DNA of 63,224 bases, counting the filler, from Collodictyon triciliatum (taxonomy: Eukaryota): assembly GCA_043381765.1 (NCBI GenBank). It is 50 parts of 50 records of this genome, joined end to end, with 100 filler letters (N's around TTAATTAATTAA, not from the genome) between each part and the next. Parts side by side here need not be neighbours in the genome. Positions count along the whole stretch, not along the records: positions 25,411 to 26,577 come from JBHJMP010012008.1; 49 more parts are not named here. One strand, 5' to 3'. The translations under genes and the position numbers were made by a program. The notes beneath the pieces were generated by a model. It was not told where the DNA came from. It did no database searches and saw only the letters and a program-made list of their open reading frames with translations. Below, in pieces: positions 6,258-49,854 of the stretch (position 1 is its first letter; every line of letters starts with the position of its first letter).

Positions 6258-6734
6258 NNNNNNNNNNNNNNNNNNNNNNNNNNNNNNNNNNNNNNNNNNN
6301 NTTAATTAATTAANNNNNNNNNNNNNNNNNNNNNNNNNNNNNNNNNNNNNNNNNNNNAAAGAGAAAAAGAGAAAAAGAGAAAAAGAGAAAAAGAGAAAAA
6401 GAGAAAAAGAGAAAAAGAGAAAAAGAGAAAAAGAGAAAAAGAGAAAAAGAGAAAGAAAAAATTACAGCATGGATTCGATAAGGCGAGAACAACTCTATCT
6501 CCGGTCTACCCGTACAGTTTTGCATGAAAACTACTCAGCCAATTATTTCAGTTTATTTCTTCCATTCCTTTATGGGTCTGTGTATTTCTACTTTCGCTTT
6601 GTAAAATTAGGGAATTTCATGTACGGATGTAAAAACAGAAAATCCTGACTTTATTGTGTATATTATCGAAGACGCAAATATTCAATTTAGCATATCTTTT
6701 GCATTTTCCATCGCAAACCTAGATCCATTGCAGT

Positions 6735-7528
6735 ATAATATGGTCAACAAAATAAAGTCCACAATTGCCTCTTGGAAAAGATTCCATCTGTCAGACATCA
6801 GAAAAGCGAGGCTATGGAACAAACTCATGCTATCGAATCTCATCCACAACATGAAGGGCTCTCACCTGCCACAAAAGCATCTCGACAGACTGGAGAGTAA
6901 ATGCTGCACCTTCATCACAACAAATAAACAAAAATACAAAATAAAAACACTGATTAAGCCATCCACAGAAGGAGGCGTTGGACTCATCACACCCAAAACC
7001 GCATGGATATCACTGACCATGAAGTGGTGGACGGACATGTTCATGCATCCGAAAGGGTTTTGGCTAATTGGGATGTGGAAACTCATCACCAAAATGTTTG
7101 CAGACTTCAAAACACAGTTGCAACAAAGTATCAATACCACAACCACCTCCAAACGCACCTGAGCCTTTGCTCTCGCGTTGGCAGATTCTGTATAATCACT
7201 GCGAAATGACAATACCCCTGAACGAGCCATTAGCAGCAGGACAAATATGCTGGGACAACCGGAAAGGCTTCTGCATCACCAAACAGGTTCACGAAGGCAA
7301 CACAGCCACCATCATAGAAATCTCATTCAAAGAAGACGGCTCGTACATCACAACGCCAGGCTCCACCGCATTCCGCACACAAGATACACAGCCAACCACA
7401 GCCGTCCTGAATAACAAAGGAAAATGGCACTCACGCAGACCAATCTCATACGACATCCCGTCGCCATTCTTTTTCCGCCTCAAGAACGAACGCTCGTCTA
7501 ACGGTGCGCAGTCTACTCAGTTCTCGAT
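6735..7528 (+). mobile_element. L1/Tx1-like non-LTR retrotransposon ORF2 fragment (post-RT region), frameshifted near 7140
   Basis: WKRFHLSDIRKARLWNKLMLSNLIHNM..LP..LIKPSTEGGVGL..WISLTMKWW matches the LS..G+..L..S...LP....P..EGGLG...KW pattern of L1/Tx1 ORF2; homologous to 45069-45558. Confidence 0.85.
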
Positions 7529-7628: not shown

Positions 7629-8798
7629 AACTAGTGTTATATCCGGAAGTAGCGATAAAACAATAAAAATTACCAACATATCTGATGGAAGATTAATTAG
7701 AACATTAAGTGGACACACTGGAATTGTAACGAGTCTTGCTTTAACTCCTGACAATTCAAAAATTATATCCGGAGGTGCTGACAAAACAATCAAAGTTTGG
7801 AATTTTATCGATGGAACACTAGTCCAAGATATAAAAGTTCACACTGATTCTGTGAACTGCGTTTTAATCACATCAGATGCAACAAAAATTGTTTCTTCAA
7901 GCAGCGACAAATCAATCAAAATAACAAGCATTTTAGATGGGAGCTTAATTCGCACACTCAATGGGCATACTGGAATCGTTAAGACAGCTTCTATTTCTTC
8001 AGATGGCTCAAAAATTATTTCTGGAGGCAGTGATAATACAATTAGAATTTGGAATTTTTCACCTGGAGTGACAATACATATCATGAATGAGCATGGAGTT
8101 ACAGTTAATGGAATTTCAGTTCTCTCAGATGGCTCCAGATTTTTGTCAGGAAGCGATGACACAACAATCAAATTGTGGAACTTTCCTGATTTCAGCTTGA
8201 TTTTGACTGTTTCAGGCCACACAAGTACAGTGAATAGCGTTTATTTAAGCCCAGATAAAACTAAAATTTTGTCAGGAGGCAGTGATAATACAATTAGAAT
8301 CTGGAATTATGCCGATGGTTCTCAAGTGCTTTCAATAAATGCACATACAAGTGCTGTGAATAGTGTAGTTGTTTCGGCTGATGGAACAAAAATAGTCTCA
8401 GGAAGCAGTGATAGCACAATAAAAATGTGGAATTTCTCTGATGCTTTATTATTGAGAACATTCAACGGTCATACTGCAGCTGTTAGAAGCGTAGCTATAT
8501 CATCAGATAGTTCAACAGTAGCATCAGGAAGTGATGATATGAATGTTAATGTTTGGAGAGTTTCAGATGGAATTTTAACTCGTACCTTATCAGGACATAC
8601 CAAAGGAGTGAATTATGTTTTCATCACTCCAGATAACGCAAAAATTATCTCAGGCAGTGCTGATTTTTCAATAAAATTATGGAATTTGTCAGATGGAATA
8701 TTACTCAGAACCATAACAGGTCACGGAAATGCTGTCAGGTGTGTCATTACCTCTCCAGATGGAACAAGAATCCTCTCTGGAAGCAGCGATAACACAAT
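7629..8798 (+). CDS. WD40-repeat protein (~9 repeats), intronless, open at both contig ends
   Basis: Repeated GH(T)..V..V..S.DG.KI(I/V)SGS.D.TIK(I/L)WN units; the frame is open upstream of the annotated ORF start. Confidence 0.95.
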
Positions 8799-8898: not shown

Positions 8899-9170
8899 TT
8901 AACCATGGATTCTGCCTCCCTTTCGTTCGCCACAGAGCAGTTGTTTGTTACCAGCTCGAGGGTTGCACGGTCAAAGTCTCGTTTCTTCCACACATCGGCG
9001 TAGAAGTTTTGGATATTAGTTTTGCCAATCTCTTCAGGTGGCAGCGGTTCATTCTCGTCTGACTCTGGCAGTGGAGGGCAGAGCGTCATTTCTTTTTCTT
9101 TGCCGAGTCCGAAGAACCATCAGTCGATTTGCTCGTAGTACCTGATGTGCCGTGATTCCAATTTCTGCCC
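8899..9170 (-). mobile_element. Inverted LINE ORF2 fragment (endonuclease-RT linker region) with a premature stop
   Basis: YYEQID*WFFGLGKEKE..EEIGKTNIQNFYADVWKK resembles the xFF..K...EI....FYxxL linker of L1-type ORF2. Confidence 0.6.
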
Positions 9171-9199
9171 TAAAAATCATGATTCTCCTCGACCTCGTC

Positions 9200-9877
9200 G
9201 GGAACAACTCATAGAGCCCGACTCGAGTGTGGAGGTCGAAAGCGAAAGCTGGAGACAAACACAATCGAATGCACAAGAATCGAGTACACAACTCAATCAA
9301 CGCTCCTTGGCAACACAGATACGCCGATCAAAGAGAGCCCAGGAGCTGAACCTGTACGGAGCCGGCTGTTACTTCCGCATTCGAGGTAAGCACAAACTGC
9401 CCCAGAACCACGAAGCCTGCAACCAAGCGAAGAAAGAACTCGCCCAAGTCCTTAAACAACTCGAGTGGTACGAGGAGAATGTCATCATGCAACTGTACAA
9501 TCAACCCCAAGGTTACACAGTAGCCTTCCCGCACCAAGAAAACGCCGCAGAGTTTGTCAAGGCAGGACAGTTTAAACTACTCAACCGCTCTTTCCGCCCA
9601 TACCAAGAAAGGACACCTCTCCATTCCGCTATCATCGGCGATATCCCCCCAGGCTTCACCAAGGCAGACATTGAAGAGGCCTGCAAAGTATTATTTTCGC
9701 CTACCGTAGTTTACTACGAAGCTGTAGACGGCATCTGGACTAATGACGTGCTGGTCAAGTTCCAGGCATCAGAACTGTCCAAAGTGTTAAAAAAAGAAAA
9801 TAAACTTGCAAGGTTTCTCCGTCCCCTTCATACTCCTCCCCGAACGAAAGGAGAAGCCACAACACGATACCAAACAT
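9200..9877 (+). mobile_element. LINE ORF1 fragment (subfamily alpha)
   Basis: YTVAFPHQENAAEFVKAGQFKLLN..SAIIGDIPPGFTKADIEEAC.. is an RRM-like Tx1/L1 ORF1 pattern; ~93% identical by eye to 43880-44294 minus. Confidence 0.75.
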
Positions 9878-10068
9878 GACCATTTTGAAAAGTCTAAATA
9901 AATTGAAGGAAAGAGGAGCAACAGCCGTCGGCGGAAAAATTAACTATGACGAGACAGATGGAATTCTGTTTGGGTTTCAGGATGGACTTATGTTTCCAGG
10001 AAACATTGTGTGGAAGTCACCGTCACATCCACTCAAGTATCTTGGTATCATATTCGGTCCACAATCGG
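9878..10068 (+). mobile_element. LINE reverse transcriptase C-terminal fragment (motif 7 region)
   Basis: GGKINYDETDGILFG....PLKYLGIIFG matches the G.kiN..Kt......KYLG motif. Confidence 0.75.
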
Positions 10069-13114: not shown

Positions 13115-13636
13115 CTATTCTAGACCAACAGGAGGAGCAGTAAGGATTTGTTGAGCAACCACAAACTGATCCGAAGGAACGTCCAAATTGTACGAGATAA
13201 GCTTCAGGAAGATGACTTCCGCCTGATTGATCATCTCAAGCGGAGCGCCGCTGAGAATGGAATAAGACTGGTTGTCAAAATAGTCGTCCTTGTTGTACTT
13301 TGCGGCCTGCATCAAGGCCACGGTCCAGACAAGACGCAAAGAGTAGGGATTCAGCGCAGCAGGTGCGTTGTTCATGAGTCGGTCGATGTAGATCAAGGCA
13401 AGCACAACCTCCGAATCGCCAGACACGGCGTGGCGTCGAATGCGCCGCAGAAGCATGTCGGGCGGGTAGAGATCGAGCTGGGTGTCGACTGCTTGGCGCA
13501 CAAGGATAGTCAGTTGCTGCACAGCCGAGTCGAAGGAGTGCGAGCCCACAGGGTTCTCTCTCGTCGTGGCCACGGCTTCCTCCAGCAGGCTGTGCAAGTA
13601 TTGAATGCTTTGTGTATCGATCAGAGTGAGCGCCAT
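13115..13636 (-). CDS. Pho80/cyclin P/U-like cyclin (173 aa from MALTLID), intronless
   Basis: LALIYIDRL..LNPYSLRLVWTVALMQAAKYNKDDYFDNQSYSILSGAPLEMINQAEVIFLKLISYNL is the Pho80-family cyclin box. Confidence 0.88.
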   Translation of the reverse strand: MALTLIDTQSIQYLHSLLEEAVATTRENPVGSHSFDSAVQQLTILVRQAVDTQLDLYPPDMLLRRIRRHAVSGDSEVVLALIYIDRLMNNAPAALNPYSLRLVWTVALMQAAKYNKDDYFDNQSYSILSGAPLEMINQAEVIFLKLISYNLDVPSDQFVVAQQILTAPPVGLE

Positions 13637-13817
13637 TTCCGTGCTTCTTCTTTTTTTTTTTTTTTTTTTTATTTTTTTCCTTGTTTTTTGTTTTTTTTTT
13701 TTTTTTTTTTTGAAGTCTTGGCCTTGGTCTTGCCTTTTGTCTTTGTGTTTCTCTGGCTGGCTGGCTGGCTGGCTGTCTTTTTTCTTGTACACAAGAGTTA
13801 GTTTTTCGTCGGCTTTT

Positions 13818-13848
<31 letters not shown>

Positions 13849-14298
13849 TTTTTTTTGTGGTGGCCTTTTTGCAAAGCGTAGGTTTTTNNNNNNNNNNNNN
13901 NNNNNNNNNNNNNNNNNNNNNNNNNNNNNNNTTAATTAATTAANNNNNNNNNNNNNNNNNNNNNNNNNNNNNNNNNNNNNNNNNNNNTTTTTTTTTCTTT
14001 TTTTTATGTTCTTTTTTTTATGTTCTTTTTTTTATGTTCTTTTTTTTATGTTCTTTTTTTATGTTCTTTTTTATGTTCTTTTTTTATGTTCTTTTTTTAT
14101 GTTCTTTTTTTATGTTCTTTTTTTATGTTCTTTTTTTATGTTCTTTTTCTTTTATTATTTTCATTCACTAAGCTCTCCCGTGTTTTGAATTATGATTCTT
14201 TATTATTTACTTTTAATGGCTGTGATGGGTTTGCATTCCATAAATTGACTGTATCTCGCGGTAACCATACAATCATTTGATTATCAACTTTTGAATAG

Positions 14299-16528: not shown

Positions 16529-17697
16529 GAATGTCCTTCAGATACTTATAGCGATGATTATGGACTAAAATATTGTAAAATGTGTCCTGAGGGATTTGAA
16601 TGTGAAGGAACCAGTCAACCAACAGTTGCCCCTGGATATTGGCAGACTCAAACCTCAAATGGAGAATATGTTGCCTACAAATGCTTGAATGAAAATGCAT
16701 GTAACGGAGGAAATAAAACTTGTGCTGATGGATACACCGGGCCATTATGTAGTATTTGTGACGGTGGATACGGAAAAACTGGGTATTATTGCACTAAATG
16801 CCCACCGAAAGGAGTGAACATATTCTTGATTTTCCTGAGCTTTTTTATTCCACTTGCATTTGTGTTTTTCATGATAGAGCAATCAAGACAAACAAGAACG
16901 GGAAATATTCAAATCCTGAAATCTCTCTCCACCCATTTCCAAGTTTTGTCATATTTGGCGAACTTTGATGTAAAATGGAGCTCAATCATAATTTCAGCTA
17001 TGAAAATCCCAGCTCTGTTTTCATTTTCTCTGTCAATAGACAGCTACCCAATTGAATGCCAACTCGAGCTATCGATTTACGAAAAAATATTGCTGACGAT
17101 GTTAAGTCCAATAATACTGACTTTAATAATGTTGATTTTCGTTTTGATGAAAGATTTGAGGAGACTTTACAAAAATGAGATTTCAAGAAGTAGCTTTACA
17201 TTTAATCATTTCCGGGAAGAAATCATGTACTCGATGTTGGTTATGCTGTTTTTTGTCCATCCTTCAATCACATCGAGCGTTGCACAAATATTTCCATGTG
17301 AAAAACTCGGGGATGTAAGATATTTGAAAGCTGATATGTCGATTTTATGTGATGACGAAACTTACAAATTTTGGAGGAATATTTCTTTTGTTTTCCTTTT
17401 TGCCTATTGTATCGGCGGACCGCTCTTAATTTTAGTCAGAATCATTTGCAAAAGAACAGCACTGGCGAATCCAACTTCGAAAACATATGCACTTTTCAGA
17501 TTTTTGATTGATGGATATACTGAAAAGTGCCAATACTGGGAGGTCGTCTTGATGATGCAAAAGTTGGTCATTGTGATGATAAGCACGTTCTTTCCTGCTT
17601 CGCTACAAATATACTTTGGTTTGTGGCTGCTGTTTCTGATGATTGCTTCGACCATTTATTTCAGGCCATTCATATCCAATGTGCTGAAAAAGTCACA
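16529..17697 (+). CDS. Cys-rich (GCC2/GCC3/EGF-like) extracellular region followed by a multipass transmembrane domain; common protist surface-protein family; intronless, partial
   Basis: CPEGFECEG..PGYW..CADGYTGPLCSICDGGYGK..CTKCP, then hydrophobic helices with LKADMSILC and YWEVVLMMQKL motifs. Confidence 0.85.
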
Positions 17698-17797: not shown

Positions 17798-17920
17798 GAG
17801 CCATGTTTCTTGGAGGCAGATGATATCTGCATGAGAGAAAAGAGCAGTGTTTAGGGCCTCTTTTCTTTTTTGGGGGTCGTTAATCCCCCTAACGTTACAC
17901 GACAGAACGTTAAAACGCAT
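17798..17920 (-). mobile_element. Start of LINE ORF2: apurinic-type (APE) endonuclease N-terminus
   Basis: ATG at 17920 gives MRFNVLSCNVRGINDPQKRKEALNTALFSHADIICLQETWL, with the NVRG and DIICLQET motifs of L1-EN. Confidence 0.92.
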
Positions 17921-18966
17921 GAATAATCTTTTGGCTTCTGGAGGCCGTAGCCTCCGGTGATTGGCCCTCTCCGCTGGAGCTGAGTTACTCAGAGTGGGAT
18001 GGCTTACTCGATTTGTCCTTCATTTGGCCGGTGCCATAATTGCTCGCGGTTCAGCCAGGATTTGTCGGATGGTCTTGGGCTTTTGGCTGCACCCCCTTTG
18101 TAGCTGGTGTGTTGGGAGATGCACTCTATCGGTCACTAGCAACCCTCGGTTCCAATTTTTCCCCCTCATCCACGCGGTAGGCAGGGCCACCCATGTTTCC
18201 ACTTTCATTCTGGCTTGCTTTCTGGCTCGATATATTAGGTGGTGTACTTGACTGATTCACTCTCTTTTCCTCGGGCGAGGCTTTATCTTCGACGGTTTCG
18301 ATATTTTTTGGGGCGCCAGTGATTGCAGCATGAGTAACCGGTGTTTCATATTCGTCTACGTTTCTTTTTCTTGTATAGGAGGCCGTTTATCGCTGGGGAG
18401 TCGCAAGAGTTGTCGATAATAGGTTTGCTCCCATAAACAGTACTTGAGGAGTAGTTTGTCGTTCCCGAAGCTTCGAGGTGTTCGTTTTCTTCTTCAGCAA
18501 AGCATTCTATGATGACGACAGGTTGGATGGACTGTTGTTCTTCCAATCCCGAGTCTGAGACGTCGCTTCTTATGGATTGCGCAGTACTTGCTGAAGAAAG
18601 AGTCTCTTGAGTGGTCCCAGGAGTCATGCCCTCTAAGGTGGTTGGTGGATATGGTTTGCTGGGTGCCATTATGCTGTTTCCCGATTCTGTTACCGAGTTG
18701 GCTTGAACTTCCCTTTCCTCGGCATCTCTCCATGATTTAAAGGAGGTTTTGGTGAGATATCATTGGCTTGAGTAGGTTGGTAATCTTGGAGGTTATCGAT
18801 GTTTCCTCCACTTCCTTGAAGCCATTCCACGATTGATATTGCTTCCTCTGTGTTCATTGGCGAACTTGATGCACTTTCGGGCAAATCGCCTGGTGTTTCG
18901 TCCATTATATCAATGTCCATTTCTTGATTTTGGGGCCGCTCTTGAACCTTTGTCTTGAATATGACA
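17921..18966 (-). mobile_element. LINE ORF1 C-terminal low-complexity region (subfamily beta), frameshifted
   Basis: 18490-18960 is homologous to 27380-27844 (MDIDIMDETP..PMNTEEAISIVEW..) and lies directly upstream of the APE start. Confidence 0.85.
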
Positions 18967-20335: not shown

Positions 20336-21150
20336 TGGACTTCTTGCGCTTCTTGGACTTCTTGCGCTTCTTGGACTTCTTGCGCTTCTTGGACTTCTTG
20401 CGCTTCTTGGACTTCTTGCGCTTCTTGGACTTCTTGGACTTCTTGCACTTCTTGCGCTTCTTGGACTTCTTGCGCTTCTTGCACTTCTTGGACTTTTTGG
20501 GCTTCTTGGACTTCTTGAACTTCTTGGACTTTTTGGACTTCTTGCACTTCCTGTGTATTTTGGACTTCTTGCACTTCTTGCGTTTCTTGGACTTCTTGGA
20601 CTTTTTGGGCTTCTTGCACTTCCTGTGTATTTTGGACTTCTTGCACTTCTTGCACTTCTTGCACTTCTTGCACTTTTTGGGCATCTTGCACTTCTTGCGC
20701 TTCTTGGACTTCTTGCACTTCTTGCACTTCTTGCGCTTTTTGCACTTCTTGCGCTTCTTGGACTTCTTGCGCTTTTTGCACTTCTTGCGCTTCTTGGACT
20801 TCTTGCGCTTTTTGGACTTCTTGCGCTTTTTGCACTTCTTGCACTTCTTGCACTTCTTGGACTTTTTGGACTTCTTGGATTTCTTGGACTTTTTGGACTT
20901 CTTGGATTTCTTGGGCTTCTTGCACTTCTTGGACTTTTTGGACTTTTTGGGCTTCTTGCACTTCCTGTGTATTTTGGACTTCTTGCGCTTCTTGGACTTC
21001 TTGCGCTTCTTGGACTTCTTGCGCTTCTTGGACTTCTTGCGCTTCTTGGACTTCTTGCGCTTCTTGCACTTCCTGTGTATTTTGGACTTCTTGGACTTCT
21101 TGGGCTTGGGCTTCTTGGGCTTTTTGGACTTGCACTTCTTGCGCTTCTTG
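20336..21150 (-). repeat. 9-bp tandem array (minus strand CAAGAAGTC/GTG/GCG/GCC), probably coding (QEV/QEA)n or (SPR/SAR)n
   Basis: ~800 bp with no frameshifting indel; several frames stay open; the QEV frame extends upstream to a ctaacag acceptor at ~21283. Confidence 0.75.
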
Positions 21151-21644
21151 GGGTTGTCCTAGAACTGTCTTCTTTCCGGCTGTTTCGAATGTCAAGATTG
21201 ATGATATAGCATCGGAGGGACAATTTGCGACGAGGGGATCTGCAGTCCTCCGCTCTCCTAAGGATATGGATATTTTACCAAGCTGTTAGAGTGGTAATTA
21301 TTCTCTTGAAAATCAGAAAAAAATATCAATGAACCAAACATTCTTGTGTGGCGAAAATAGCCATTCTTTTTATTTTTCTTGTTTGTTAAATCTGTTTTCT
21401 TTTATTGTTTTATTGTTTTATTGTTTTATTGTTTTATTGTTTTATTGTTTTATTGTTTTATTGTTTTATTGTTTTATTGTTTTATTGTTTTATTGTTTTA
21501 TTGTNNNNNNNNNNNNNNNNNNNNNNNNNNNNNNNNNNNNNNNNNNNNTTAATTAATTAANNNNNNNNNNNNNNNNNNNNNNNNNNNNNNNNNNNNNNNN
21601 NNNNTTTTTTTTTTTTTTTTTTTTTTGTTGTTCTTTTTTTTAAA

Positions 21645-24626: not shown

Positions 24627-25047
24627 TCATCGGTACTGACTCAGTAAGGCAACGCATTCGTGGCTGTGGCGCACTTGGGCCAGTGTGAGGGCGATGAAGC
24701 CTTTGCGGTCTTTCGCGTACGGATTTCCTCCTTTCTGCAGCAGCACATGTACAACAGCAGCGTGGTTTTCAAAGGCCGCCCAATGCAGGGCACTTAAGCC
24801 CTCCTCATCCTGGTCGGTGGCCGCTGCGATGCGCGTTGGGAAGCGTATTAGATTGCCAGTTTGGAGACCTTGGTAGAAGCACATGCATGTCTCTGTCGGT
24901 GTTTGATGAAAGGATGGCCCGGCTGGGTCGGAAGCAGCTACCTGAGCCGCTCTGAAGCAGCATTTCGCAGCACTCCAGATGCCCGCCTTTTGCTGCCTCC
25001 ATCAACGGGGTCTTGCCAGTCCTGTCCCGCATATTGCTTCGTGATCC
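24627..25047 (-). CDS. Ankyrin-repeat protein, partial
   Basis: DRTGKTPLMEAAKGGHLECCEMLLQSG and DEEGLSALHWAAFENHAAVVHVLLQKGGNPYAKDRKG. Confidence 0.9.
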
Positions 25048-25210
25048 CTTCGCTTTTTTTTTTTAAAAAAAAATAAATATTAATAAATAAATAAATAAGT
25101 GATGGGCAAAAGTATAATGAGTACGAAAGAACGCAATAGGGACGAGACCAGACAAATAGGAGACGAGAACAAATGGGAAAGATTGTTTAGATACATACAG
25201 ATAGGTAAAT

Positions 25211-25305
<95 letters not shown>

Positions 25306-25410
25306 TAGATNNNNNNNNNNNNNNNNNNNNNNNNNNNNNNNNNNNNNNNNNNNNTTAATTAATTAANNNNNNNNNNNNNNNNNNNNNNNNNNNNNNNNNN
25401 NNNNNNNNNN

Positions 25411-26132
25411 AGCTTCTTCAGCTTTTTTAGCTTCTTCAGCTCTTTTAGCTTCTTCAGCTTTTTTAGCTTCTTCAGCTCTTTTAGCTTCTTCAGCTTTTTT
25501 AGCTTCTTCAGCTCTTTTAGCTTCAGCTGCGGTATCGACCTAGAGTTATGTTAGTTGTGTCCTGTGTTGTGTATGTGGGGGTTGGGGGTGGATGTGTGCT
25601 TACGGGGTCGTAGAGCTGCAGCTTTCGGAGGGTGTCGGCAAAGTTCAGTGTCATTCCAGACCAAGGTTTCTCTGTGTTGTTCCAGCAGGGGAGATTTGAG
25701 ATGCCACGCGGGGCTCTCTTTATGGTTTGTCGGCTCTGCCATTCGATGAGTAGTCTTTTCAGATTTGTGAGTGCTGTGATCTGTGCTGGAAGCTCCTCCA
25801 TCTGCGTGTATCGTTGTCAGTCATTTTCTTTTAAACATAAATAGTAATATAATGTATGAATAAAAACATACTGGATTTGTATGAACAGAAAGCTCTGTGA
25901 GACCAGTCAAACACGATATTTGTGCAGGTAGTGACGACAACTTATTGAAACCAAGACCCAATGCTTTCAGACCAGTCAACAAAAAAACACCAGGTGGCAC
26001 AGATGACAGATTCTTGAAATTGAGTTCCAGGAATGTGGAGCTTTTTAGAGCGGCAATATCAGGTTTCCCAGAGAGATTCAGGACTTCTTCCATCAGTGCA
26101 TCCACTTGGGCAGGTGTGAGACAGTCGGACAT
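25411..26132 (-). CDS. LRR protein copy A: N-cap + short LRR array + C-cap + (AEEAKK/R)n stalk; exons 26132-25872, 25801-25604, 25539-<25411
   Basis: NKLSSLPAQISCLTGL repeat; phase-0 GT-AG introns of 70 and 64 nt; exon 3 reads VDTAAEAKRAEEAKKAEEAKR.. Confidence 0.88.
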
Positions 26133-26134
26133 CT

Positions 26135-26505
26135 GGACAGATTCCGGCTGTATATATGGGTAGACTGGCTAGGTGTCAATACAATACACATCATTTATTT
26201 GTTTTATGAGTGGACTTGACAATCACACAGGACAGAATTACTCGAGTCAGGATGGTGGGGTTGTGCACTTAGAGATCAGAAAGTACTTTGTGAATAAAAA
26301 AAGACGAGCAAGGATTTCGACAAGACAACATTAAATATCCCGCAAAGGCCGGCGGATTTTTCAGAGAAGACGACTTGTGCAGAACTTGTGTGCTTGTGCT
26401 TCCTTGGAAATTCACCGGTTCGAGGTTGGCCACAGACAAGGTTGACCTCTTGCATCGAAAGTCTTGGGAATAGCTGGGTGCTTGTCGCGTGCGTCACCGG
26501 GCGTC
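26135..26505 (-). promoter_or_regulatory. Conserved upstream/5'UTR block of the LRR gene family (copy A)
   Basis: About 22 differences in ~345 nt versus 57022-57366; begins with a TGACGC direct repeat; possible 5'UTR intron ending tccag. Confidence 0.7.
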
Positions 26506-26677
26506 ACCAAAGACCTGGGAATTGCCATATGGTTGGGAATACTGGGGGTGGCCACATGAGTCGCGTTGGTGCGGAGGNNNNNNNNNNNNNNNNNNNNNNN
26601 NNNNNNNNNNNNNNNNNNNNNTTAATTAATTAANNNNNNNNNNNNNNNNNNNNNNNNNNNNNNNNNNNNNNNNNNNN

Positions 26678-27844
26678 AGGACGTGACTCTAATGGTGGAC
26701 AGCCCTGCCCTCGGACTCCGGATCGCCTTCCCAAGAAAAGAAAACGCAGCTGCCTTCATTAAGGAGGGGTCGTTTAAGCTCCTCAATCACCAATACACCC
26801 CCATGCCAGCCAAAACTGTCACAAAGGTTGCGCACCTGTCTAACATACCGCTGGGTGTCAGCTGGACTGACATTTTCGAAGCCTGCAGCGAATACTTCAC
26901 CCCAATCAAAGTCAACTGGACAAAGCCTGGAGGAATATGCATGAATGATGCACTCGTTACTTATGACAAAGAACAGGAAGAATTGGGGAAAATACCTACC
27001 TTTGTCGTCATTCATGGCAGACGCTGTCGCGTGGAGATACGCGCCCTCAAAGAGTCTGACATCCCACCAACTCTCCCCAACAAAGAAGGGTATGACACAA
27101 AAGGTCAAGCCACAAAAAAAAAACAGCTACTGCCAAGCCGATGCCCACCAATCAGGCGGCCACCAACAAACAAAACACCGCCACTCGCTTCTCGGGCTTC
27201 CACGCAAAAGTAGCCGACTATTGCGCTAAAGACTGGCCAACCGTGCAGGAATCGTCTGTGCAAAACAATTCCAGAGCCCACAAACAAGGCCAAAGGCAAC
27301 ACGCGTCGTCTTCTAATGCCAGAGGGATAAATCGTGACAAGACATCCGCGTATTAAGTTCTCGAGGTCTCAACCAAGACAAGGGTTCAGGAATGGCCCCA
27401 AAATCAAGAAATGGATATCGAAATGATGGACGAAACACCAGTCGATTTGTACGCATGTGCTTCATCAAGTTCGCCAATGAACACAGAGGAAGCAATATCA
27501 ATCGTGGAATGGCCTCAAGGAAGTGGAGGAAACATGGCTAGCCCTCAAGATTTCCAACCTCCTCAAGCCGATGATATCTCACCAAACTCTCCTTTAAACC
27601 ATGGAGAGAACGCCGAGGAAAGGGAAGTCCAAGCCAACTCGGTAACAGAATCGGGAAACAGCATAATGGCACCCAGCAAACCACACCCGCCTACCTCCTT
27701 AGAGGGCATGACTCCTGGGACCACTCGAGAGACTCTTTCTTCAGCAAGTACTGCGCAATCCATAAGAAGCGACGTCCCAGACTCGGGATTGGAAGAACAA
27801 CAGTCCATCCAACCTGTCGTCATCATAGAAGGTTCTACTGAAGA
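26678..27844 (+). mobile_element. LINE ORF1 (subfamily beta), frameshifted copy
   Basis: IAFPRKENAAAFIKEGSFKLLN..VAHLSNIPLGVSWTDIFEACSEYF..GGICMNDALV..IPTFVVIHGRRCRV is a Tx1/L1 ORF1 pattern; the 3' part matches 18490-18960. Confidence 0.82.
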
Positions 27845-28173
27845 NNNNNNNNNNNNNNNNNNNNNNNNNNNNNNNNNNNNNNNNNNNNTTAATTAATTAA
27901 NNNNNNNNNNNNNNNNNNNNNNNNNNNNNNNNNNNNNNNNNNNNGAATGCCTCTCCAATTACTCTAGACACATCACCAACAAGGTTTTCAGCCTAAAATG
28001 TTTCAGGGTCATTGAGGACTCAAATAATCCTTATTTTACTATTACTAGATTCAAAGTGTAAAATTACATGAATATATTAATCGATGGGATAAAAAGTTCA
28101 TTTATCTTAAGAGGAGAGAATTTCCCTTGTCATTTGTTGTTGAGGAGAAATTTCTACTACAATATTGTATCAT

Positions 28174-28973
28174 ACCTCAACAACTAACTTTGGCAAGAAC
28201 CGGGACTGGCAAAATGTGCTTTGCTTTAAAACCTCTTGAATAGTCAAGGGTGGAATCCCTTTCGTGCGTTTGTTCCTCTTGTGTATAATTTTCGAGATAG
28301 CGATGTAATTAAACAAAACATACTTGCGAAGGTGGTCTATGGTTTCGCTCAAATTGACCAACATCGTTGTCATCTCCAGTATTTTTGCAAATGAATATTT
28401 CGGGGAGGTGAGTAAATGTGCTGCACTTTGAGACGATGAGCCAAAGTGCAATAAAGAAGTCTTTGCATCCTTCAAATTCTCAAAGTAGCTGCGAATCAAA
28501 TTGAACTGGTCCACGCTGTCTCTCTCCACCACCGCATAGAACTGATCTATCCGAACAAGCTCCGATGACAGCTGATGCAAAAAGATTGCATGAATGGAAT
28601 TTGCTGTGCTAATATGCGTCGACTCAAAAGCGATGCGCCAGTTCGTGTAACCAGTCCCTGATCCAAAGAAACAAGTGCTGCTCGAGTTGTTTTGCCCCTT
28701 GGTTCCTGAGAACGGTGTTGGCGTTGCGGACGAGGACGATGAAGTCGATGAAGGAGAGTGCAGAAGCGAAGAGGACGCGTGGTACGACGTTCCCTGATTC
28801 GGTATGGGTGCGCAGAATGTGACGGAACCAAGGGCAGGGAGTTGCCGCGTCATCCCCACGGGCGTGTTTGCGCTGGGGTTGCAGTCGATGGCCTTCTTGA
28901 GGGTCTTATAGTCGAGATAGAAAGCATCCCAGCCTGAGCGGGCCGCATGCTTGAGACGCTTGCCGAATTTCAT
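28174..28973 (-). CDS. SPX-domain protein, first exon
   Basis: MKFGKRL..WDAFYLDYKTLKKAI..LSSELVRIDQFY..LRKYVLFNYIAISKIIHKRNK are SPX motifs. Confidence 0.93.
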
Positions 28974-29485
28974 CGTCCTTGGGCGAGCAAGTCGGTGTGT
29001 TGTGAGATAGCGAGCCGCATTTTGTTTTTTTTGTTTTTTTGTTTTTTTTTTTTTTTGTTTTTTTGTTTTTTTGTTTTTTTGTTTTTTTGTTTTTTTGTTT
29101 TTTTGTTTNNNNNNNNNNNNNNNNNNNNNNNNNNNNNNNNNNNNNNNNNNNNTTAATTAATTAANNNNNNNNNNNNNNNNNNNNNNNNNNNNNNNNNNNN
29201 NNNNNNNNAAAACAAAAAAAAAAAAAAACAAAAAAACAAAAAAACAAAAAAACAAAAAAACAAAAAAACAAAAAAACAAAAAAACAAAAAAACAAAAAAA
29301 CAAAAAACCGAATACCAATATAAACATAAATAGATATCGAATAAAGGAAAAAAATAAACATAAATAGATAGACGAGCTCATCATTTTTCTGTCTGCGCAT
29401 GTGATTTTTTTATGGCTAAAAACCAAAACATCGAATTCATGAGCAATATATAACAAAAAAGAAAAAGAAAAGAAAAGAAAAGAAC

Positions 29486-43129: not shown

Positions 43130-44294
43130 CGAGCAATATACATGGGTGTTACAGCATGCTGGTAGTTTGCTTTGTTAGGGGTGCCCTCGAATGTTGGGAA
43201 TTTCGGTGTGAAGCTGACGCTGCTCTGGGGTGTTCCTGATGCAGTCCCTGCCTCTTGGGACGCAGGTGAGAGATGGAACGAGTCGTTGCTGGAGTTTGCT
43301 TCTTTAGGGCTATTCGATTTTTGCACATGCTTTGCTGGGGTCACGTCGGGGCTCCTATGGAGCATGAAGTTGGTTATGTTTGGTTGTCTAGTCGACTTGG
43401 ATTGAGGCGCTGGTGAAGGTCTTTCTGCTCTCGGTGGTTTAGATTGGGGTTTGGAGCTCAGGTTTACTGTTGGTGTATTTGGTTTAGTCGTCTTCCTCTC
43501 AGGGGTTCTTCCAGACGAAGAAGCCGTGCCTTGGTATGTTTGTTCGGTTGATTTCAGGGTGATGCTCACTCCCAAAGTCTCATTTGCTTTCTTTGGGAGT
43601 TCCTTGCGAGAGGAGCTTCTTGGTTGGGTGGCGGTAATGAGCTGAGGTGGTTCATCATCCTCGTCTTCCATGGCTTCGGGTGATTGTGTCCGGGAGGGTT
43701 GGGCCCGTCTTTCAGTCCTGGACTGCGTGGGTTGCGAGGGTTTGCGGTTGGGTTTACCGTGGTATTTGCCCTGGTGCTTGTTATGTTTGGTATCGTGTTC
43801 GGGCTTCTTCTTCCGTTCAGGGAGGAGTATGAAGGGGACGAGGAATCCTTGCAAGCTTATTTTCTTTTTTGGCACTTTGGACAGTTCTGATGCCGGGAAC
43901 TTGACCAGCGCGTCATTGGTTCAGATACCGTCCACAGATTCGTAGTAAACTATGGTAGGCGAAAATAATGCTTTGCAGACCTCTTCAATGCCTGCCTTGG
44001 TGAAGCCTGGGGGATATCGCCGATGATAGCGGAGTGGAGAGGTGGCCTCTCTTGGTATGGGCGGAAAAAGCGGTTGAGTAGTTTAAACTGTCCTGCTTTG
44101 GCAAACTCTGCGGCGTTTTGTTGGTGCGGGAAGGCTACTGTGTATCCTTGGGGTTGATCGTACAGTTGCATGATGACGTTCTCCTCGTAGCACTCGAGTT
44201 ATTTAAGGACTTGGGCGAGTTCTTTCATCGCTTGGTTGCGGGCTTCGTGGTTCTGGGGCAGTTTGTGCTTACCTCGAAGGCGGACGTAGCAGCC
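43130..44294 (-). mobile_element. LINE ORF1 (subfamily alpha), degenerate copy with stops/frameshift and a long S/T/P/K-rich tail
   Basis: 43790-44294 aligns with 9364-9877. Confidence 0.82.
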
Positions 44295-44394: not shown

Positions 44395-44742
44395 TCGGTT
44401 ATACTCCTCTATGGAGCCGGTTTGTGAGAGTTTGTCTAACTTTAGTCGAAGTAAGCGCTGACTCGTCGCTCCTCTAAACTGTCGGGTTATCGCTTCTCTG
44501 AAGTCCTTCAAGCTGTTAAGCGCTTGCACTTGTCATTTCTCCTCGTCCGCCCGGTAGCGTAGCCACCATTCTGCTGCGGATCCATCCAGCATTAAACTTA
44601 CGAACATTAATTCCTGCTTCTGGGGTACCTGGCGTATTTGGAAGAATGTCTCCACCTTGTATAACCATGTCCTCACGTTCTGCCCTGGTGCCCCGGAGAA
44701 CATATCCGGCGGTCGAATGGCTCCCTCTGTGATGGACTGCAT
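44395..44742 (-). mobile_element. Ty3/Gypsy-like retrotransposon gag (one in-frame TGA at 44533-44535)
   Basis: PDMFSGAPGQNVRTWLYKVETFF..LMLDGSAAEWW..DFREAITRQF..LDKLSQTGSIEEY is a Retrotrans_gag pattern. Confidence 0.9.
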
Positions 44743-44805
44743 GGTCTATACTCTCGTGCTAGGTTTGGCGTGTTTCTGTTCTTCGGTCTTCCTTAGGAAG
44801 GTCAC

Positions 44806-44820
44806 TTCGCTTTGCTACCA
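44806..44820 (-). promoter_or_regulatory. Primer-binding site, initiator-tRNA-Met-like (TGGTAGCAAAGCGAA)
   Basis: Begins TGG, 3 nt after the LTR end ...CCTTACA; resembles the TGGTA(T/G)CAGAG iMet PBS. Confidence 0.78.
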
Positions 44821-44823
44821 AAA

Positions 44824-45067
44824 TGTAAGGGGATGTCCTTTTATTCTGTTATAAGCTTGTTTTATGATTCCCAACCTATTAACGAGTCGACGGACTCGTT
44901 AAATATCCCCTGGACAAAGGGTTCAGGGGAGGTTTCTGAGAACGCTCCTGGAGCGTCCCTCGGTGGTTCTTTGGACTGATTCTAAGAACATACTTGGAGA
45001 AATCCAAGATGGGTCTTAGCATCAGATCAGAGATTCCAAGGACGCACTTGGGTGTCCAGTTGTTGCA
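44824..45067 (-). mobile_element. Probable 5' LTR (~244 bp, TG...CA)
   Basis: Minus strand starts TGCAACA and ends CTTACA next to the PBS; LINE homology begins immediately outside it. Confidence 0.7.
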
Positions 45068-45068
45068 C

Positions 45069-45558
45069 TAAGCCACCTACGGAGGGAGGGCTGGGACTCA
45101 TAACGCCTGGCATTGCATAGTCATCGCTCACTATGGACGGTGGACCGATATCCTTATCCACCCGAAAGGATTTTGGCAGCGTGGAATGTGTCATCTTATT
45201 CACCGCATATGTCCGAACTTCAAAGCACGTCTCTGTGAGAGTATAATGCCATCACCTCTGCCAAACACTCCCGAGTCGCTACTAGCGCGGTTGAAGATTC
45301 TGTATGAAAACTGTGAAATGTGCGAGTTTACTCAACTACACGCTGTTACGGGGCAAATTTGCTGGGATAGAGCAAAAGGCTTCTCTATTAACAAGTCGAG
45401 AGAAGGAAACAGCTCATTCATTCTGCAACATGTCGCTTTCCAAAAGGATAGGAGCTTTTCATCGTCGAAAAATGCAGCGATATTTCACTCCTCGAATGCA
45501 ACAGCCAACCACAGTCGTCCTGAACAACAAAGGAGAATGGCGCTCACGCCGCCTGACC
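45069..45558 (+). mobile_element. LINE ORF2 post-RT fragment, degenerate
   Basis: KPPTEGGLGLITPGIA*SSLTM..HPKGFW..GQICWDRAKGF..VVLNNKGEWRSRR, homologous to 6955-7440. Confidence 0.85.
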
Positions 45559-49450: not shown

Positions 49451-49854
49451 TATGGGCAGTGACGCGAGGCCATTTGCTATGGACTATGTGGATAGCGCGC
49501 ATATACTCACGCAAAGCAAGACTCAACAACCAACCACCCATTCCTGATAATAGACTGGATGACATCATACAAATCTCTTTTCTCAATAGCTTCCTTCGCC
49601 ACCTGCTCGTTCTCTACTACCCAGACCCCGTGAGAAGAGGGATGTGGAAAGAAGCAGAGAAAGATATTAAACATCGCCTTGTATCTCTCATGCAGGCACA
49701 AGACCCAGGCTACAGGCCAAACCGCAGGATGCAATTCCTGATTACCGACTACTTCTCTGCCACCCGGCCAACAAGTAGCGTCCATGCAAACGATGGCGAG
49801 CGAACCAAAGTCAGTATTTCCATCATCCTGCACAAAATTGAAAGGAAGAATAAA
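49451..49854 (+). mobile_element. LINE ORF2 C-terminal region
   Basis: HLLWTMWIARIYSR resembles the W.IW..RN motif; near-identical copy at 55243-55660 minus. Confidence 0.72.

What the first reader, a model, noticed from the sequence alone, without database searches (positions are those of the whole stretch)
25411..26505. Mosaic LRR paralogs: shared upstream region and intron, but swapped N-cap, different repeat number and different C-terminal tail
Seen: A (minus) and B (57022-58182) differ at only ~22 of ~345 nt upstream, and their LRR backbones are near-identical. The ~150-165 nt N-cap between them is hardly alignable at DNA level (MSDCLTPAQVDALMEEVLNLSGKPDIAALKSSTFLELNFKNLSSVPPGVFLL vs MSDGGDLPLDELLDLIRDCDFETIASRRAPDLQYRELISIPNEIFLY). 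A has 1 full backbone unit and B has 4. In the C-cap exon the differences cluster in two loops (LIEWQSRQT vs YIQNGEGQII; EKPWSGMTLN vs EDEYGGIS). Inference: modules of very different ages are being exchanged inside a recently homogenised frame, by gene conversion from donor cassettes or unequal crossover, analogous to VLR assembly or trypanosome mosaic VSGs.
Basis: partly seen in the sequence, partly recalled or inferred. Interest (0 to 1): 0.75.

Follow-up and report, generated by a model that had tools for sequence, protein, structure and literature searches.

The report
Patchwork LRR gene family, unknown eukaryote
Two short contigs carry the front ends of two members of a large, expressed leucine-rich-repeat gene family in which near-identical stretches of DNA alternate with very old, very different patches, a pattern already familiar from other receptor-like gene families.

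Summary
The window is 50 unrelated contigs of about 1.16 kb. Contigs A (25411-26577, minus) and B (57022-58182, plus) share a 5' flank (347 of 370 aligned bases), a 70-nt intron (67/70) and the frame of exon 2. Their first 46 in-register codons are 49% identical (pS 0.67). They have 1 versus 4 units of 69 nt. Two exon-2 loops differ at 18/30 and 20/27 columns. The tails are unrelated.

New here:
- Spliced contigs in two public runs confirm the intron and show that the family is expressed and has many variants.
- The "C-cap" is a conserved irregular repeat with no Pfam model, found in 24 database proteins. Some are fused to kinase, Roc-COR, RING/NHL or NYN RNase domains.
- Both loop types are old. 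A's loops match a relative with 45% frame identity at 11/18 columns, and B's match another at 11/17, while A and B share 42/47 frame positions but only 1/19 loop positions.

So segments of different age are supported, and gene conversion or concerted evolution is the best explanation. Module swapping is not shown: the N-caps are colinear homologues (17/54), and no recombinant combination was seen. Nothing supports donor cassettes or VLR/VSG-like assembly. The proteins look cytosolic. This is a new member of a known kind.

The parts
26133..26506 (-). A: non-coding 5' flank shared with B
   Evidence: 347 matches and 23 mismatches against B. No frame looks coding in either copy.
25941..26132 (-). 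A: start codon, N-terminal cap and first, divergent LRR (64 codons)
   Evidence: Translation. 49% DNA identity to B over the 46 in-register codons. Protein 17/54 identical to B. Variants of its first bases follow the same flank in runs X1 and X4 (table 7).
25872..25940 (-). A: single 69-nt backbone LRR unit (LSSLPAQISCLTGLTELSVHTNP)
25802..25871 (-). A: intron 1, 70 nt, GTATGT..CAG, phase 0
   Evidence: 67/70 identical to B's intron. The splice was seen on B and its relatives, not on A itself.
25604..25801 (-). A: exon 2, irregular long LRR ('cap module'), with loop 1 at 25724-25750 and loop 2 at 25643-25669
   Evidence: The only Pfam hit is a weak LRR_14 match.
25540..25603 (-). A: putative intron 2, 64 nt, GTAAGC..TAG (inferred)
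   Evidence: Reading frame resumes after it. Database exon-2 ORFs run into GTA-type codons at the same place. No RNA evidence.
25411..25539 (-). A: start of the tail, VDTA(AEAKRAEEAKKAEE)n, open at the contig end
   Evidence: Translation. Perfect 36-nt tandem repeat, 3.2 copies.
57022..57410 (+). B: non-coding 5' flank shared with A, with an 18-nt insertion at 57393-57410
   Evidence: Record 23 of run X4 runs from the flank to 57436, i.e. 26 nt into B's coding sequence, which is under the tool's 31-letter bridging rule (table 8).
57411..57587 (+). B: start codon, N-terminal cap and first, divergent LRR (59 codons)
   Evidence: Contigs 96-98% alike in X1 (record 5) and X4 (record 25).
57588..57863 (+). 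B: four 69-nt backbone LRR units
   Evidence: Backbone 42 nt has mean pairwise identity 92.1%, variable 27 nt 59.6%.
57864..57933 (+). B: intron 1, 70 nt, GTATGT..CAG, phase 0
   Evidence: Four contigs in runs X1 and X2 join an exon-1 end (..AA[TC]CC+G) directly to 57933/57934 (tables 5 and 5c).
57934..58182 (+). B: exon 2 (cap module, loop 1 at 57985-58014, loop 2 at 58069-58089) and start of the tail AENRPAVKTPAKNTLAAGS, open at the contig end
   Evidence: No Pfam family. 101 representatives at E<=1e-3.

Best explanation
A and B are the 5' parts of two germline members of a large, transcribed family of intracellular LRR proteins in an unidentified, probably freshwater, eukaryote.

Each gene has the same layout:
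- a shared promoter/5' flank;
- an N-terminal cap plus a first divergent LRR;
- a variable number of 23-residue LRR units whose convex-side 'backbone' (LSSLPxQISCLTGL) is kept nearly identical at DNA level, while the concave-face positions (xxLxVxxNx) differ;
- a conserved phase-0 intron;
- a 46-residue irregular LRR carrying two loops;
- a tail that differs between members.

The near-identical parts, non-coding DNA and silent sites included, are kept alike by sequence exchange between members (gene conversion and unequal crossover, i.e. concerted evolution). The N-cap, the concave-face codons and the two loops belong to old, distinct types that escape homogenisation or are moved as short patches, most likely because selection favours different binding surfaces.

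Shown: the anatomy, the segment-wise discordance, the age of the loop types, splicing and expression, and many variants within single runs.

Inferred: the exchange mechanism and its direction, selection, a binding function, and cytosolic location.
For: Discordant divergence within one pair:
- flank 23 mismatches in 370 aligned bases;
- intron 3/70;
- exon-2 frame 15 differences in 141 nt against 38 in 57 loop columns;
- N-cap/LRR1 pS 0.665.

Clustering beyond chance: none of 20000 permutations reached the observed maximum.

Incongruence with outside relatives:
- frame A-B 42/47, loops A-B 1/19;
- A loops against P0111 11/18, where the frame is 21/47;
- B loops against P0105 11/17, where the frame is 29/47;
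- B and P0105 share the same loop indels.

LRR units: the variable residues are positions 15, 16, 18, 20, 21 and 23 of 23, plus position 6. Backbone identity is 92% against 60% for the variable part.

Many members, and expression:
- 79 (X1) and 119 (X2) contigs at 80% likeness or more were laid on B, spread over all identity classes.
- Four contigs carry spliced exon1|exon2 joints.
- Loose ends show further variants of A-type N-cap, LRR1, loop 1 and loop 2 next to shared sequence.
- B-type N-cap contigs and A-type N-cap ends both occur in run X1.

Cytosolic look: no hydrophobic N-terminus. The nearest solved relatives are SHOC2, Rsu1 and similar small LRR proteins. Relatives of the cap module carry kinase, Roc-COR, RING/NHL or NYN RNase domains.
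Against: - Only two genomic copies were available, and both are about 1.16-kb contigs of a very fragmented assembly whose reads I could not lay.
- No run holds half of B's words.
- Contig A itself was never laid.
- No recombinant combination of module types was seen, so exchange is inferred from discordant divergence, not observed.
- The loop comparison rests on 17-19 columns.
- I have no evidence on function or location beyond sequence features.
- A and B might come from different strains in a mixed sample.
Confidence: 0.6

Rival explanations
1. Assembly artefact. A and/or B are chimeric or collapsed paths through a repeat-rich assembly graph, so the mosaic, the unit number (1 versus 4) or the linkage of parts is not real.
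For: The window is made of contigs of 1160-1175 bp. B starts inside the shared flank, and A ends in a perfect 36-nt tandem repeat. A and B share exact words of 32 nt and more, which short-read graphs can cross. No run holding the source reads was found. The Sp185/333 abstract reports exactly this collapse problem for a similar small-gene family.
Against: Contigs from independent runs cover much of B. In X4, record 23 covers 57289-57436 and record 25 covers 57424-57574 with 3 differences. In X1, record 5 covers 57413-57607. In X12, record 11 covers 57722-57820, across units 3 and 4. In X1 and X2, records 7 and 18 cover unit 4, the intron and exon 2 (table 8). However, record 23 reaches only 26 nt past the ATG, under the tool's 31-letter bridging rule. 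Ends of A-type N-cap, LRR1, loop 1 and loop 2 lie next to the shared sequence in X1, X2 and X4 (table 7). Both loop types exist in database proteins from other assemblies. The shared parts of A and B differ at scattered sites, so they were assembled apart.
Confidence: 0.12
2. No exchange at all. A and B are ordinary old paralogues. The flank, intron and frame are alike because they are under strong constraint, and the N-cap and loops changed by point mutation under positive selection.
For: The variable positions are those expected to face a ligand, and pN is high in the N-cap (0.459).
Against: Silent sites in the N-cap are near saturation (pS 0.665) while 370 non-coding bases and a 70-nt intron differ by only 4-6%. 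Constraint on every base of a flank and an intron is unlikely. The loops differ at 18/30 and 20/27 columns, with indels, next to frame codons that have no silent change. Each loop type recurs in a relative whose frame is much more distant.
Confidence: 0.08
3. A and B are not paralogues of one genome but alleles or orthologues from two strains or species mixed in the sample that was assembled.
For: The origin of the assembly is unknown and no genome is held. Similar sequences turn up in several freshwater metagenomes and in runs labelled as different organisms.
Against: Run X1, a run under a single organism label, holds both a B-type N-cap contig (record 5, 7 differences in 195) and an A-type N-cap end, plus many further variants. 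The different unit numbers and unrelated tails are unlike alleles.
Confidence: 0.1
4. Programmed diversification. Expressed genes are rebuilt, somatically or at high rate in the germline, from silent donor cassettes, as in lamprey VLR genes or mosaic VSGs.
For: Only the general look: a constant frame with cassette-like variable patches, and many expressed variants. Lamprey VLRs are among the structural neighbours of a family member, as of any short LRR protein (rank 3, TMq 0.52).
Against: Both genomic copies are complete, in frame, and have their own flank and a normal intron. Among the other 48 contigs none carries a unit or cap. There is no signal-peptide-like N-terminus, and LRRNT/LRRCT are not among the Pfam hits. 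The variants seen in RNA-containing runs cannot be told from germline paralogues.
Confidence: 0.03

Closest known systems
Plant NLR / R-gene families such as RPP8 (PMC6771003, abstract read)
   Same: [quoted passage not shown] Variation is focused on the LRR.
   Different: No NB-ARC or other known domain is visible on the two contigs. The units are the short 23-residue cytosolic kind. The homogenised parts include a non-coding flank and an intron. The organism is an unidentified microbial or small eukaryote.
Zebrafish NLR-B30.2 family (PMC4852459, abstract read)
   Same: A very large family in which gene conversion acts differently on different parts of the gene, giving discordant histories for its parts.
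   Different: There the recognition module is B30.2 rather than the LRRs. Here the discordant pieces are as short as 27-54 nt.
Sea urchin Sp185/333 genes (PMC3091723, abstract read)
   Same: Small two-exon genes in a family of more than 40. The 5' and 3' flanks are highly similar, microsatellites lie nearby, gene conversion is suspected, and shotgun assemblies collapse the family.
   Different: Not LRR proteins. They are secreted immune effectors. Their mosaic consists of presence or absence of elements rather than alternative old types at fixed places (this last point is recalled, not read here).
Lamprey/hagfish variable lymphocyte receptors (recalled; PDB neighbours 4k5u, 2o6r)
   Same: A short LRR solenoid with a constant frame and variable concave face. 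The number of LRR units varies.
   Different: VLRs are assembled somatically from flanking cassettes into an incomplete germline gene, and they have a signal peptide and cysteine-rich LRRNT/LRRCT caps. None of this is seen here.
Mosaic VSG formation in Trypanosoma brucei and segmental gene conversion of Babesia ves genes (PMC11383311, PMC7485966; search listing and start of abstract only)
   Same: New gene variants built from short segments of other family members.
   Different: Those are surface antigens of parasites switched at an expression site. Here there is no sign of an expression site, of surface location or of a host.
SHOC2 / Rsu1 / Leptospira LIC-type cytosolic LRR proteins
   Same: The same class of 23-24-residue LRR (LxxLPxxIxxLxxLxxLxLxxNx). 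These are the best sequence and fold matches to a family member: 4u08 at E 2.6e-42 by sequence, 4tzh_A at TMq 0.65 by fold.
   Different: The best-scoring stretches and the two printed alignments (4u08, SHOC2 7t7a) fall in the ordinary LRRs of P0111 (residues 3-78 and 128-220). None is centred on the first irregular repeat with RAPxGIxxLPCW at about residues 75-127.

Membership tests
Leucine-rich repeat proteins (Pfam LRR_4 / LRR_8 / LRR_1) | Repeats matching the LRR profiles above the curated cut-off | tested here: met
   B exon 1: LRR_4 65.8 bits (cut-off 27) and LRR_8 43.3 bits. A exon 1: LRR_8 31.3 bits (cut-off 27).
Cap-module LRR family (unnamed; motif NPIxELPxxIxxLxxLxxLxIExxGxxxVxRAPxGITxLPCWxN...LxxLxLY) | Irregular repeat of about 46 residues with RAPxGI(T/S)xLPCW after an ordinary LRR | tested here: met
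   Both A and B carry IKRAPRGISNLPCW. The motif pattern I used matched 33 places in 26 of the 101 representative hits. After I dropped two that do not look like the module (P0152, P0181), 31 places in 24 proteins remain. No Pfam family covers B's exon 2, and A's gets only a sub-threshold LRR_14 hit. No paper holds both 'LPCW' and 'leucine-rich repeat'.
Cap-module LRR family | Shared gene structure: phase-0 intron just before the module, and a second intron one codon after LYD/LYE | tested here: inconclusive
   The first intron is confirmed by spliced contigs on B.
Multigene families shaped by gene conversion plus diversifying selection (R-gene-like evolution) | Many paralogues in one genome | tested here: inconclusive
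   Two copies among the 50 contigs. Runs X1 and X2 hold 79 and 119 contigs at 80% likeness or more, with many variants. Those are fragments from runs that are not shown to be the source organism, and no genome is held.
Multigene families shaped by gene conversion plus diversifying selection | Different segments of the same genes give discordant relationships or ages | tested here: met
   (figures in the observation check and Best explanation).
Multigene families shaped by gene conversion plus diversifying selection | Recombinant combinations of segment types among members | tested here: not met
   In A and B the N-cap, loop 1, loop 2 and tail types go together. One X2 contig end (at 57653) hints at a B-unit-1-like last unit joined to an A-like exon-2 start, but only 22 letters are shown (table 7). 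With two genes the test has almost no power.
Multigene families shaped by gene conversion plus diversifying selection | Variation concentrated at the solvent-exposed xxLxLxx positions | tested here: met
   Across the 5 backbone units the variable residues are positions 6, 15, 16, 18, 20, 21 and 23. Positions 1-5, 7-14, 17, 19 and 22 are invariant.
VLR-type somatic LRR assembly | Incomplete germline gene plus flanking promoterless LRR cassettes | tested here: not met
   Both genomic copies are complete from ATG through LRRs, intron and exon 2. No cassette is present among the other 48 contigs. The rest of the genome could not be searched.
VLR-type somatic LRR assembly | Signal peptide and cysteine-rich LRRNT / LRRCT caps | tested here: not met
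   The N-termini are acidic and hydrophilic, with maximum mean hydropathy 1.05 (A) and 0.62 (B) in 12-residue windows. LRRNT and LRRCT are not among the Pfam hits.
Mosaic VSG-type antigenic variation | Silent archive plus single expression site, surface coat protein | not testable with these tools
   There is no genome, no organism identity and no expression-site information. The sequence features argue against a surface protein.

The most novel reading that the evidence does not exclude
These genes encode the variable recognition head of an intracellular, immune-type receptor repertoire of a freshwater microbial eukaryote. Old cassette-like patches (the N-cap, the concave-face codons of each unit, and the two loops of the irregular repeat) are actively moved among dozens of expressed genes by tracts of a few tens of bases, possibly at a raised or programmed rate. 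That would be a pseudogene-conversion or VSG-like diversity generator working on a cytosolic LRR scaffold outside vertebrates and parasites. In relatives the same head is attached to kinase, Roc-COR, RING/NHL and NYN RNase effector domains, which fits a sensor-plus-effector design.
Probability: 0.1. Interest if true: 0.75.

Novelty: new member of a known kind. Interest (0 to 1): 0.4.

Why it matters
If the reading is right, this is one more example, from a poorly sampled part of the eukaryote tree, of an LRR family that keeps a homogenised frame while preserving old alternative binding patches. That is the same evolutionary solution seen in plant R genes, fish NLRs and other receptor families.

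Two by-products may be of more lasting use:
- An irregular LRR with the motif RAPxGIxxLPCW and two variable loops. It has no Pfam model, turned up no paper in one search, and folds with high confidence.
- The finding that this LRR head is combined in other proteins with kinase+SAM-like, Roc-COR, RING/B-box/NHL and NYN RNase domains. This suggests a modular family of intracellular sensors worth defining.

The case is also a warning. In assemblies this fragmented such families appear only as 1-kb pieces, so unit counts and linkage of parts should not be trusted without long reads.

Tried and rejected
- **The search for homologous proteins, three searches:**
  - B exon 1 gave 102 generic LRR hits among 1737 candidates, the best 46-56% identical, with no family member.
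  - B exon 2 gave no candidate, although the representative library does hold relatives.
  - An unrelated 389-residue protein of the window, tried in order to place the organism, gave nothing at E<=1e-10 among 1638 candidates.
- **Metagenome DNA scan:** the 20-nt backbone pattern gave 5 loci, all chance matches with nothing alike beyond the pattern.
- **The listing of cluster members:** Organisms and names of P0105-P0205 therefore remain unknown.
- **Protein Atlas:** P0111 gave only generic LRR clusters. The 389-residue protein's nearest cluster is labelled mostly Haptophyta, which is too weak to name the organism.
- **Viral contigs:** 89 stretches matched the peptide patterns and 1 passed tblastn. 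It is an ordinary LRR protein without the cap motif.
- **Rfam:** no match in the whole window.
- **Upstream block:** no convincing reading frame in either copy.
- **Earlier notes of this scan:** none on this genome or by sequence.
- **My own error:** a wrong frame for A's exon 2 (window:25602-25796) went into. Those rows are void and were redone with 25604-25801.
- **Read laying depth:** the contrasts along B (low on B's N-cap and tail, high on backbone and frame) are not usable as copy number, by the tool's own warning. The absence of cover of B's N-cap in X2 and of parts of B in X4 and X12 is no evidence of absence.
- **Runs listed but not laid:** the shares of 0.04-0.11 in the other freshwater runs are not used as evidence.
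- **Other 91-92% contig pairs in the window:** I considered that they might indicate two haplotypes. The ORFs on two of the three pairs (c08/c35 and c15/c22) look like repeated-element ORFs, so this was dropped.
- **Targeted hypermutation (DGR- or AID-like) of the loops:** rejected because each loop type recurs in distant relatives.
Full report
**What the window is.** The 63224 bases are not one stretch of genome. They are 50 contigs of 1160-1175 bp, ordered by length and joined by spacers of N with TTAATTAATTAA in the middle. No whole genome is held. The finding concerns contig 21 (25411-26577, read on the minus strand, 'A') and contig 46 (57022-58182, plus strand, 'B'). They sit in one window only because they are nearly the same length. 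An all-against-all blastn of the 50 contigs shows that A and B match only each other. The 32-nt LRR backbone word occurs once in A, four times in B and nowhere else, with 0 expected in 100 shuffles.

**Anatomy.** Both contigs have the same layout:
- a non-coding flank;
- ATG-TCC-GA (MSD);
- about 36-41 residues of N-terminal cap;
- a first divergent LRR;
- backbone LRR units of 23 residues (LSSLPxQISCLTGL + xxLxVxxNx), one in A and four in B;
- a 70-nt phase-0 intron (GTATGT..CAG);
- exon 2, which begins MEELP and carries IKRAPRGISNLPCW.

After ..LYD the two part company. A has a likely second intron (GTAAGC..TAG, 64 nt) and then VDTA(AEAKRAEEAKKAEE)n up to the contig end, which lies in a perfect 36-nt tandem repeat. 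B runs on as AENRPAVKTPAKNTLAAGS to its contig end. Neither contig reaches a stop codon, so these are 5' parts of genes and the 'tails' are only beginnings. Pfam sees LRR_4/LRR_8 in exon 1 of both. It sees nothing in B's exon 2 and only a sub-threshold LRR_14 hit in A's.

**Check of the observation.** Every element is confirmed.
- Flank: 347 matches, 23 mismatches, 5 small gap columns and one 18-nt insertion before B's ATG.
- Intron: 67/70.
- N-cap region, read in register: the 46 codons before the first backbone unit are 49.3% identical, pS 0.665 (dS about 1.6), pN 0.459.
- Exon 2 differences: F1 5/51, loop 1 18/30, F2 3/54, loop 2 20/27, F3 7/36. The maximum of 21 differences in a 30-nt window was reached by none of 20000 permutations, and the longest identical run of 38 gave p about 0.004.
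- Within the LRR units the same contrast recurs at a smaller scale. Across the 5 backbone units the 42-nt backbone is 92.1% identical on average and the 27-nt variable part 59.6%. The variable residues are positions 6, 15, 16, 18, 20, 21 and 23, which are mostly the x positions of xxLxLxxNx.

**Are the contigs real and is the gene model right?** No public run holds half of B's sampled words. The best are X1 (0.21) and X2 (0.14), both from one study, followed by freshwater metagenomes. I laid X1, X2, one freshwater metagenome (X4) and one freshwater metatranscriptome (X12) on B at 80% likeness or more.
- 79, 119, 10 and 4 contigs were laid, spread over all identity classes. X1, for example, gave 8 at 99% or more, 18 at 95-99%, 29 at 90-95% and 24 below 90%.
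- Four contigs in X1 and X2 join an exon-1 end (..AATCC or ..AACCC plus G) directly to the first base of exon 2. The intron is therefore real, and these runs contain spliced RNA of family members.
- Independent contigs cover much of B. X4 record 23 runs from the flank to 57436. X4 record 25 has 3 differences in 151. X1 record 5 has 7 differences in 195 over the N-cap up to unit 1. X12 record 11 crosses units 3-4. X1 and X2 records 7 and 18 cover unit 4, the intron and exon 2. Record 23 reaches only 26 nt past the ATG, under the tool's 31-letter bridging rule.
- Contig ends that leave B show variants of A's parts next to shared sequence: A-type N-cap starts after the flank (X1, X4), A-type LRR1 before the backbone (X1, X2), A-type loop 1 (X1 three contigs, X2 one) and A-type loop 2 (X1 two, X2 one).
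- Both a B-type N-cap contig and an A-type N-cap end occur in X1.

This makes a pure assembly artefact unlikely. However, contig A as a whole, the order and number of B's four units, and the co-residence of A and B in one genome were not tested directly.

**What exon 2 is.** A full HMMER scan of 1.84 billion representatives with B's 83 exon-2 residues gave 101 proteins at E<=1e-3 and 18 at E<=1e-10. My motif pattern found 33 places in 26 of them. Two (P0152, P0181) do not look like the module and were dropped, leaving 31 places in 24 proteins.

The consensus is NPIxELPxxIxxLxxLxxLxIExxGxxxVxRAPxGITxLPCWxNxxKPWxxMxxxxxEALxxLxLY.

- Eight short hits (P0105, P0108, P0126, P0131, P0137, P0144, P0146, P0193) look like exon-2 ORFs of the same gene structure. 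Some start with intron-end residues (YTQ|MEKLP), and after LYD/LYE plus one residue they run into GTA-type codons.
- Longer hits place the LRR-plus-module block, sometimes twice, in front of a protein kinase (P0120, P0125), Roc-COR (P0109, P0127; Roc only in P0128), RING with NHL (P0122) or a Zc3h12a-type NYN RNase (P0158).
- A 168-residue relative with the same layout as A (P0160) folds with mean pLDDT 96.9. The module is not a terminal cap but a long irregular LRR: an ordinary beta strand, a short beta hairpin (loop 1), the RAPxGIxxLPCW turn and helices, a 12-residue coil (loop 2), a helix and the next beta strand.
- Whether the two loops touch could not be measured, because coordinates are not returned.
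- The nearest solved structures are small cytosolic or bacterial LRR proteins (Leptospira LIC12234, SHOC2, Rsu1) and lamprey VLRs. In the sequence search, the best-scoring stretches and the two printed alignments fall in the ordinary LRRs of P0111, and none is centred on its first irregular repeat.
- No paper in the library holds both 'LPCW' and 'leucine-rich repeat'.

**The key test: are the patches old?** In the module alignment I compared 47 frame columns and 17-19 loop columns.

| Pair | Frame | Loops |
|---|---|---|
| A vs B | 42/47 | 1/19 |
| A vs P0111 | 21/47 | 11/18 |
| A vs P0125 | 22/47 | 8/18 |
| B vs P0105 | 29/47 | 11/17 |

A's loops (IEW-QSRQT, KPWSGMTLN) resemble those of P0111 and also P0125. 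B's loops (IQNGEGQII, DEYGGIS) resemble those of P0105, with the same extra residue in loop 1 and the same shorter loop 2. The frame and the loops therefore tell different histories. The two loop types are older than the split that left the B and P0105 frames only 62% alike, yet the A and B frames are 89% alike and nearly identical at silent sites. Together with the flank and intron, this is what exchange between family members produces. It is not what point mutation plus selection produces. It also rules out locally targeted hypermutation.

**What is not shown.** The N-caps are not unrelated cassettes. They align without a gap, 17/54 identical and 28/54 similar, and have the same length to within five residues, so they are old versions of one module. 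In both contigs the N-cap type, loop-1 type, loop-2 type and tail go together. That is what one expects of two old sub-lineages whose frame has been homogenised, and it does not require that modules are 'being exchanged'. I found no recombinant combination. A single 22-letter contig end in X2 that may join a B-unit-1-like last unit to an A-like exon 2 is too short to count (table 7). No donor cassette is present among the other 48 contigs. Nothing could be said about the rest of the genome.

**Likely function.** This is inferred. The N-termini are acidic, without a hydrophobic stretch. The LRR class is the cytosolic SHOC2/Rsu1 kind. Relatives carry intracellular signalling or effector domains. 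I therefore read the family as intracellular binding modules whose specificity lies in the N-cap, the concave face and the two loops, possibly the sensor end of larger proteins. An immune-like role is a guess.

**The organism.** It remains unidentified. It is a eukaryote with short GTATGT introns, about 35% G+C, many microsatellites and repeated elements. Members of the gene family 95-99% identical to B occur in one freshwater metagenome and one freshwater metatranscriptome.

**Comparison with what is known.** Discordant histories of gene parts through intergenic gene conversion, with selection preserving diversity, are described for plant RPP8 (PMC6771003, abstract) and for the zebrafish NLR-B30.2 family (PMC4852459, abstract). 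The sea urchin Sp185/333 family has small two-exon genes with conserved flanks, suspected conversion and assembly collapse (PMC3091723, abstract). Mosaic VSGs and Babesia ves genes (listing only) and lamprey VLRs (recalled) are looser analogies whose defining features were either not met or not testable here. The present genes have spliceosomal introns, and the cap motif was not found in viral contigs: 1 of 89 candidate stretches passed tblastn, and it is an ordinary LRR protein.

**Verdict.** The core inference, segments of different age in a homogenised frame, is supported. The mechanism is ordinary exchange within a multigene family, and the cassette or VLR/VSG reading is unsupported. This is a new member of a known kind. 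It comes with one modestly new by-product, the unannotated irregular LRR module and its fusion partners. Interest 0.4.

Noticed in passing
whole window (spacers such as 25311-25410 and 26578-26677): The window is a concatenation of 50 contigs of 1160-1175 bp in order of length, joined by 100-nt spacers of N with TTAATTAATTAA in the middle. Neighbouring features on different contigs are therefore not neighbours in the genome.
   Followed up: yes
8899-10068 vs 43130-44294; 17798-18966 vs 26678-27844; 49451-50612 vs 54499-55660; 6358-7528 vs 44395-45558: Further contig pairs are 91-92% identical over 400-520 nt (the fourth pair 67-92% over shorter stretches). The ORFs on 9139-9879 and 26626-27213 share a motif (AFP..ENAA.F.K.G.FKLLN). 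They look like copies of a repeated element, perhaps a retroelement ORF1. Pfam finds nothing on 9139-9879.
   Followed up: partly
7629-8798 (+): The whole contig is one open frame of WD40 repeats (Pfam WD40 at 4e-85, 9 stretches), open at both ends.
   Followed up: partly
16529-17697 (+): Open frame across the whole contig: a cysteine-rich region followed by several hydrophobic segments. There is a weak DUF7630 hit. The nearest Atlas cluster (score 0.97) has Ephrin_rec_like in 23% of members and is labelled mostly Haptophyta. No relative at E<=1e-10 in the word-indexed search.
   Followed up: partly
28170-29108 (-): SPX-domain protein N-terminus (Pfam SPX 3.5e-15), preceded by a lysine-rich low-complexity stretch in the same frame.
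   Followed up: no
13115-13939 (-): An ORF with a region that reads like a PHO80-type cyclin box (..LIYIDRLMNN..). This is my reading of the translation and was not tested against Pfam.
   Followed up: no
25211-25310, 58283-58382, 20336-21504, 56400-56470: Long microsatellites and low-complexity arrays lie at many contig ends: (ATCT)n, (AAT)n, a roughly 1-kb imperfect short-period array, and (AATAAAACAAT)n. These are the likely reason why the assembly breaks into 1-kb pieces.
   Followed up: no
24800-25050 (-): The contig next to A in the window encodes an ankyrin-repeat-like stretch (..GKTPLMEAAKGGHLECCEMLLQSG..). This was read from the sequence and not tested.
   Followed up: no
57022-57220 (+): The distal part of the shared 5' flank is covered by a 225-nt contig of a freshwater metatranscriptome (X12 record 9, 6 differences). 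The flank may therefore be transcribed, as a long 5' UTR or as a neighbouring or antisense transcript, or the library may contain DNA.
   Followed up: no
L006:2791-3200: A 138-kb IMG/VR contig encodes an ordinary LRR protein (..LPTEIGxLxNLxEL.. repeats) that matched only the LRR part of the query. There is no cap motif.
   Followed up: partly
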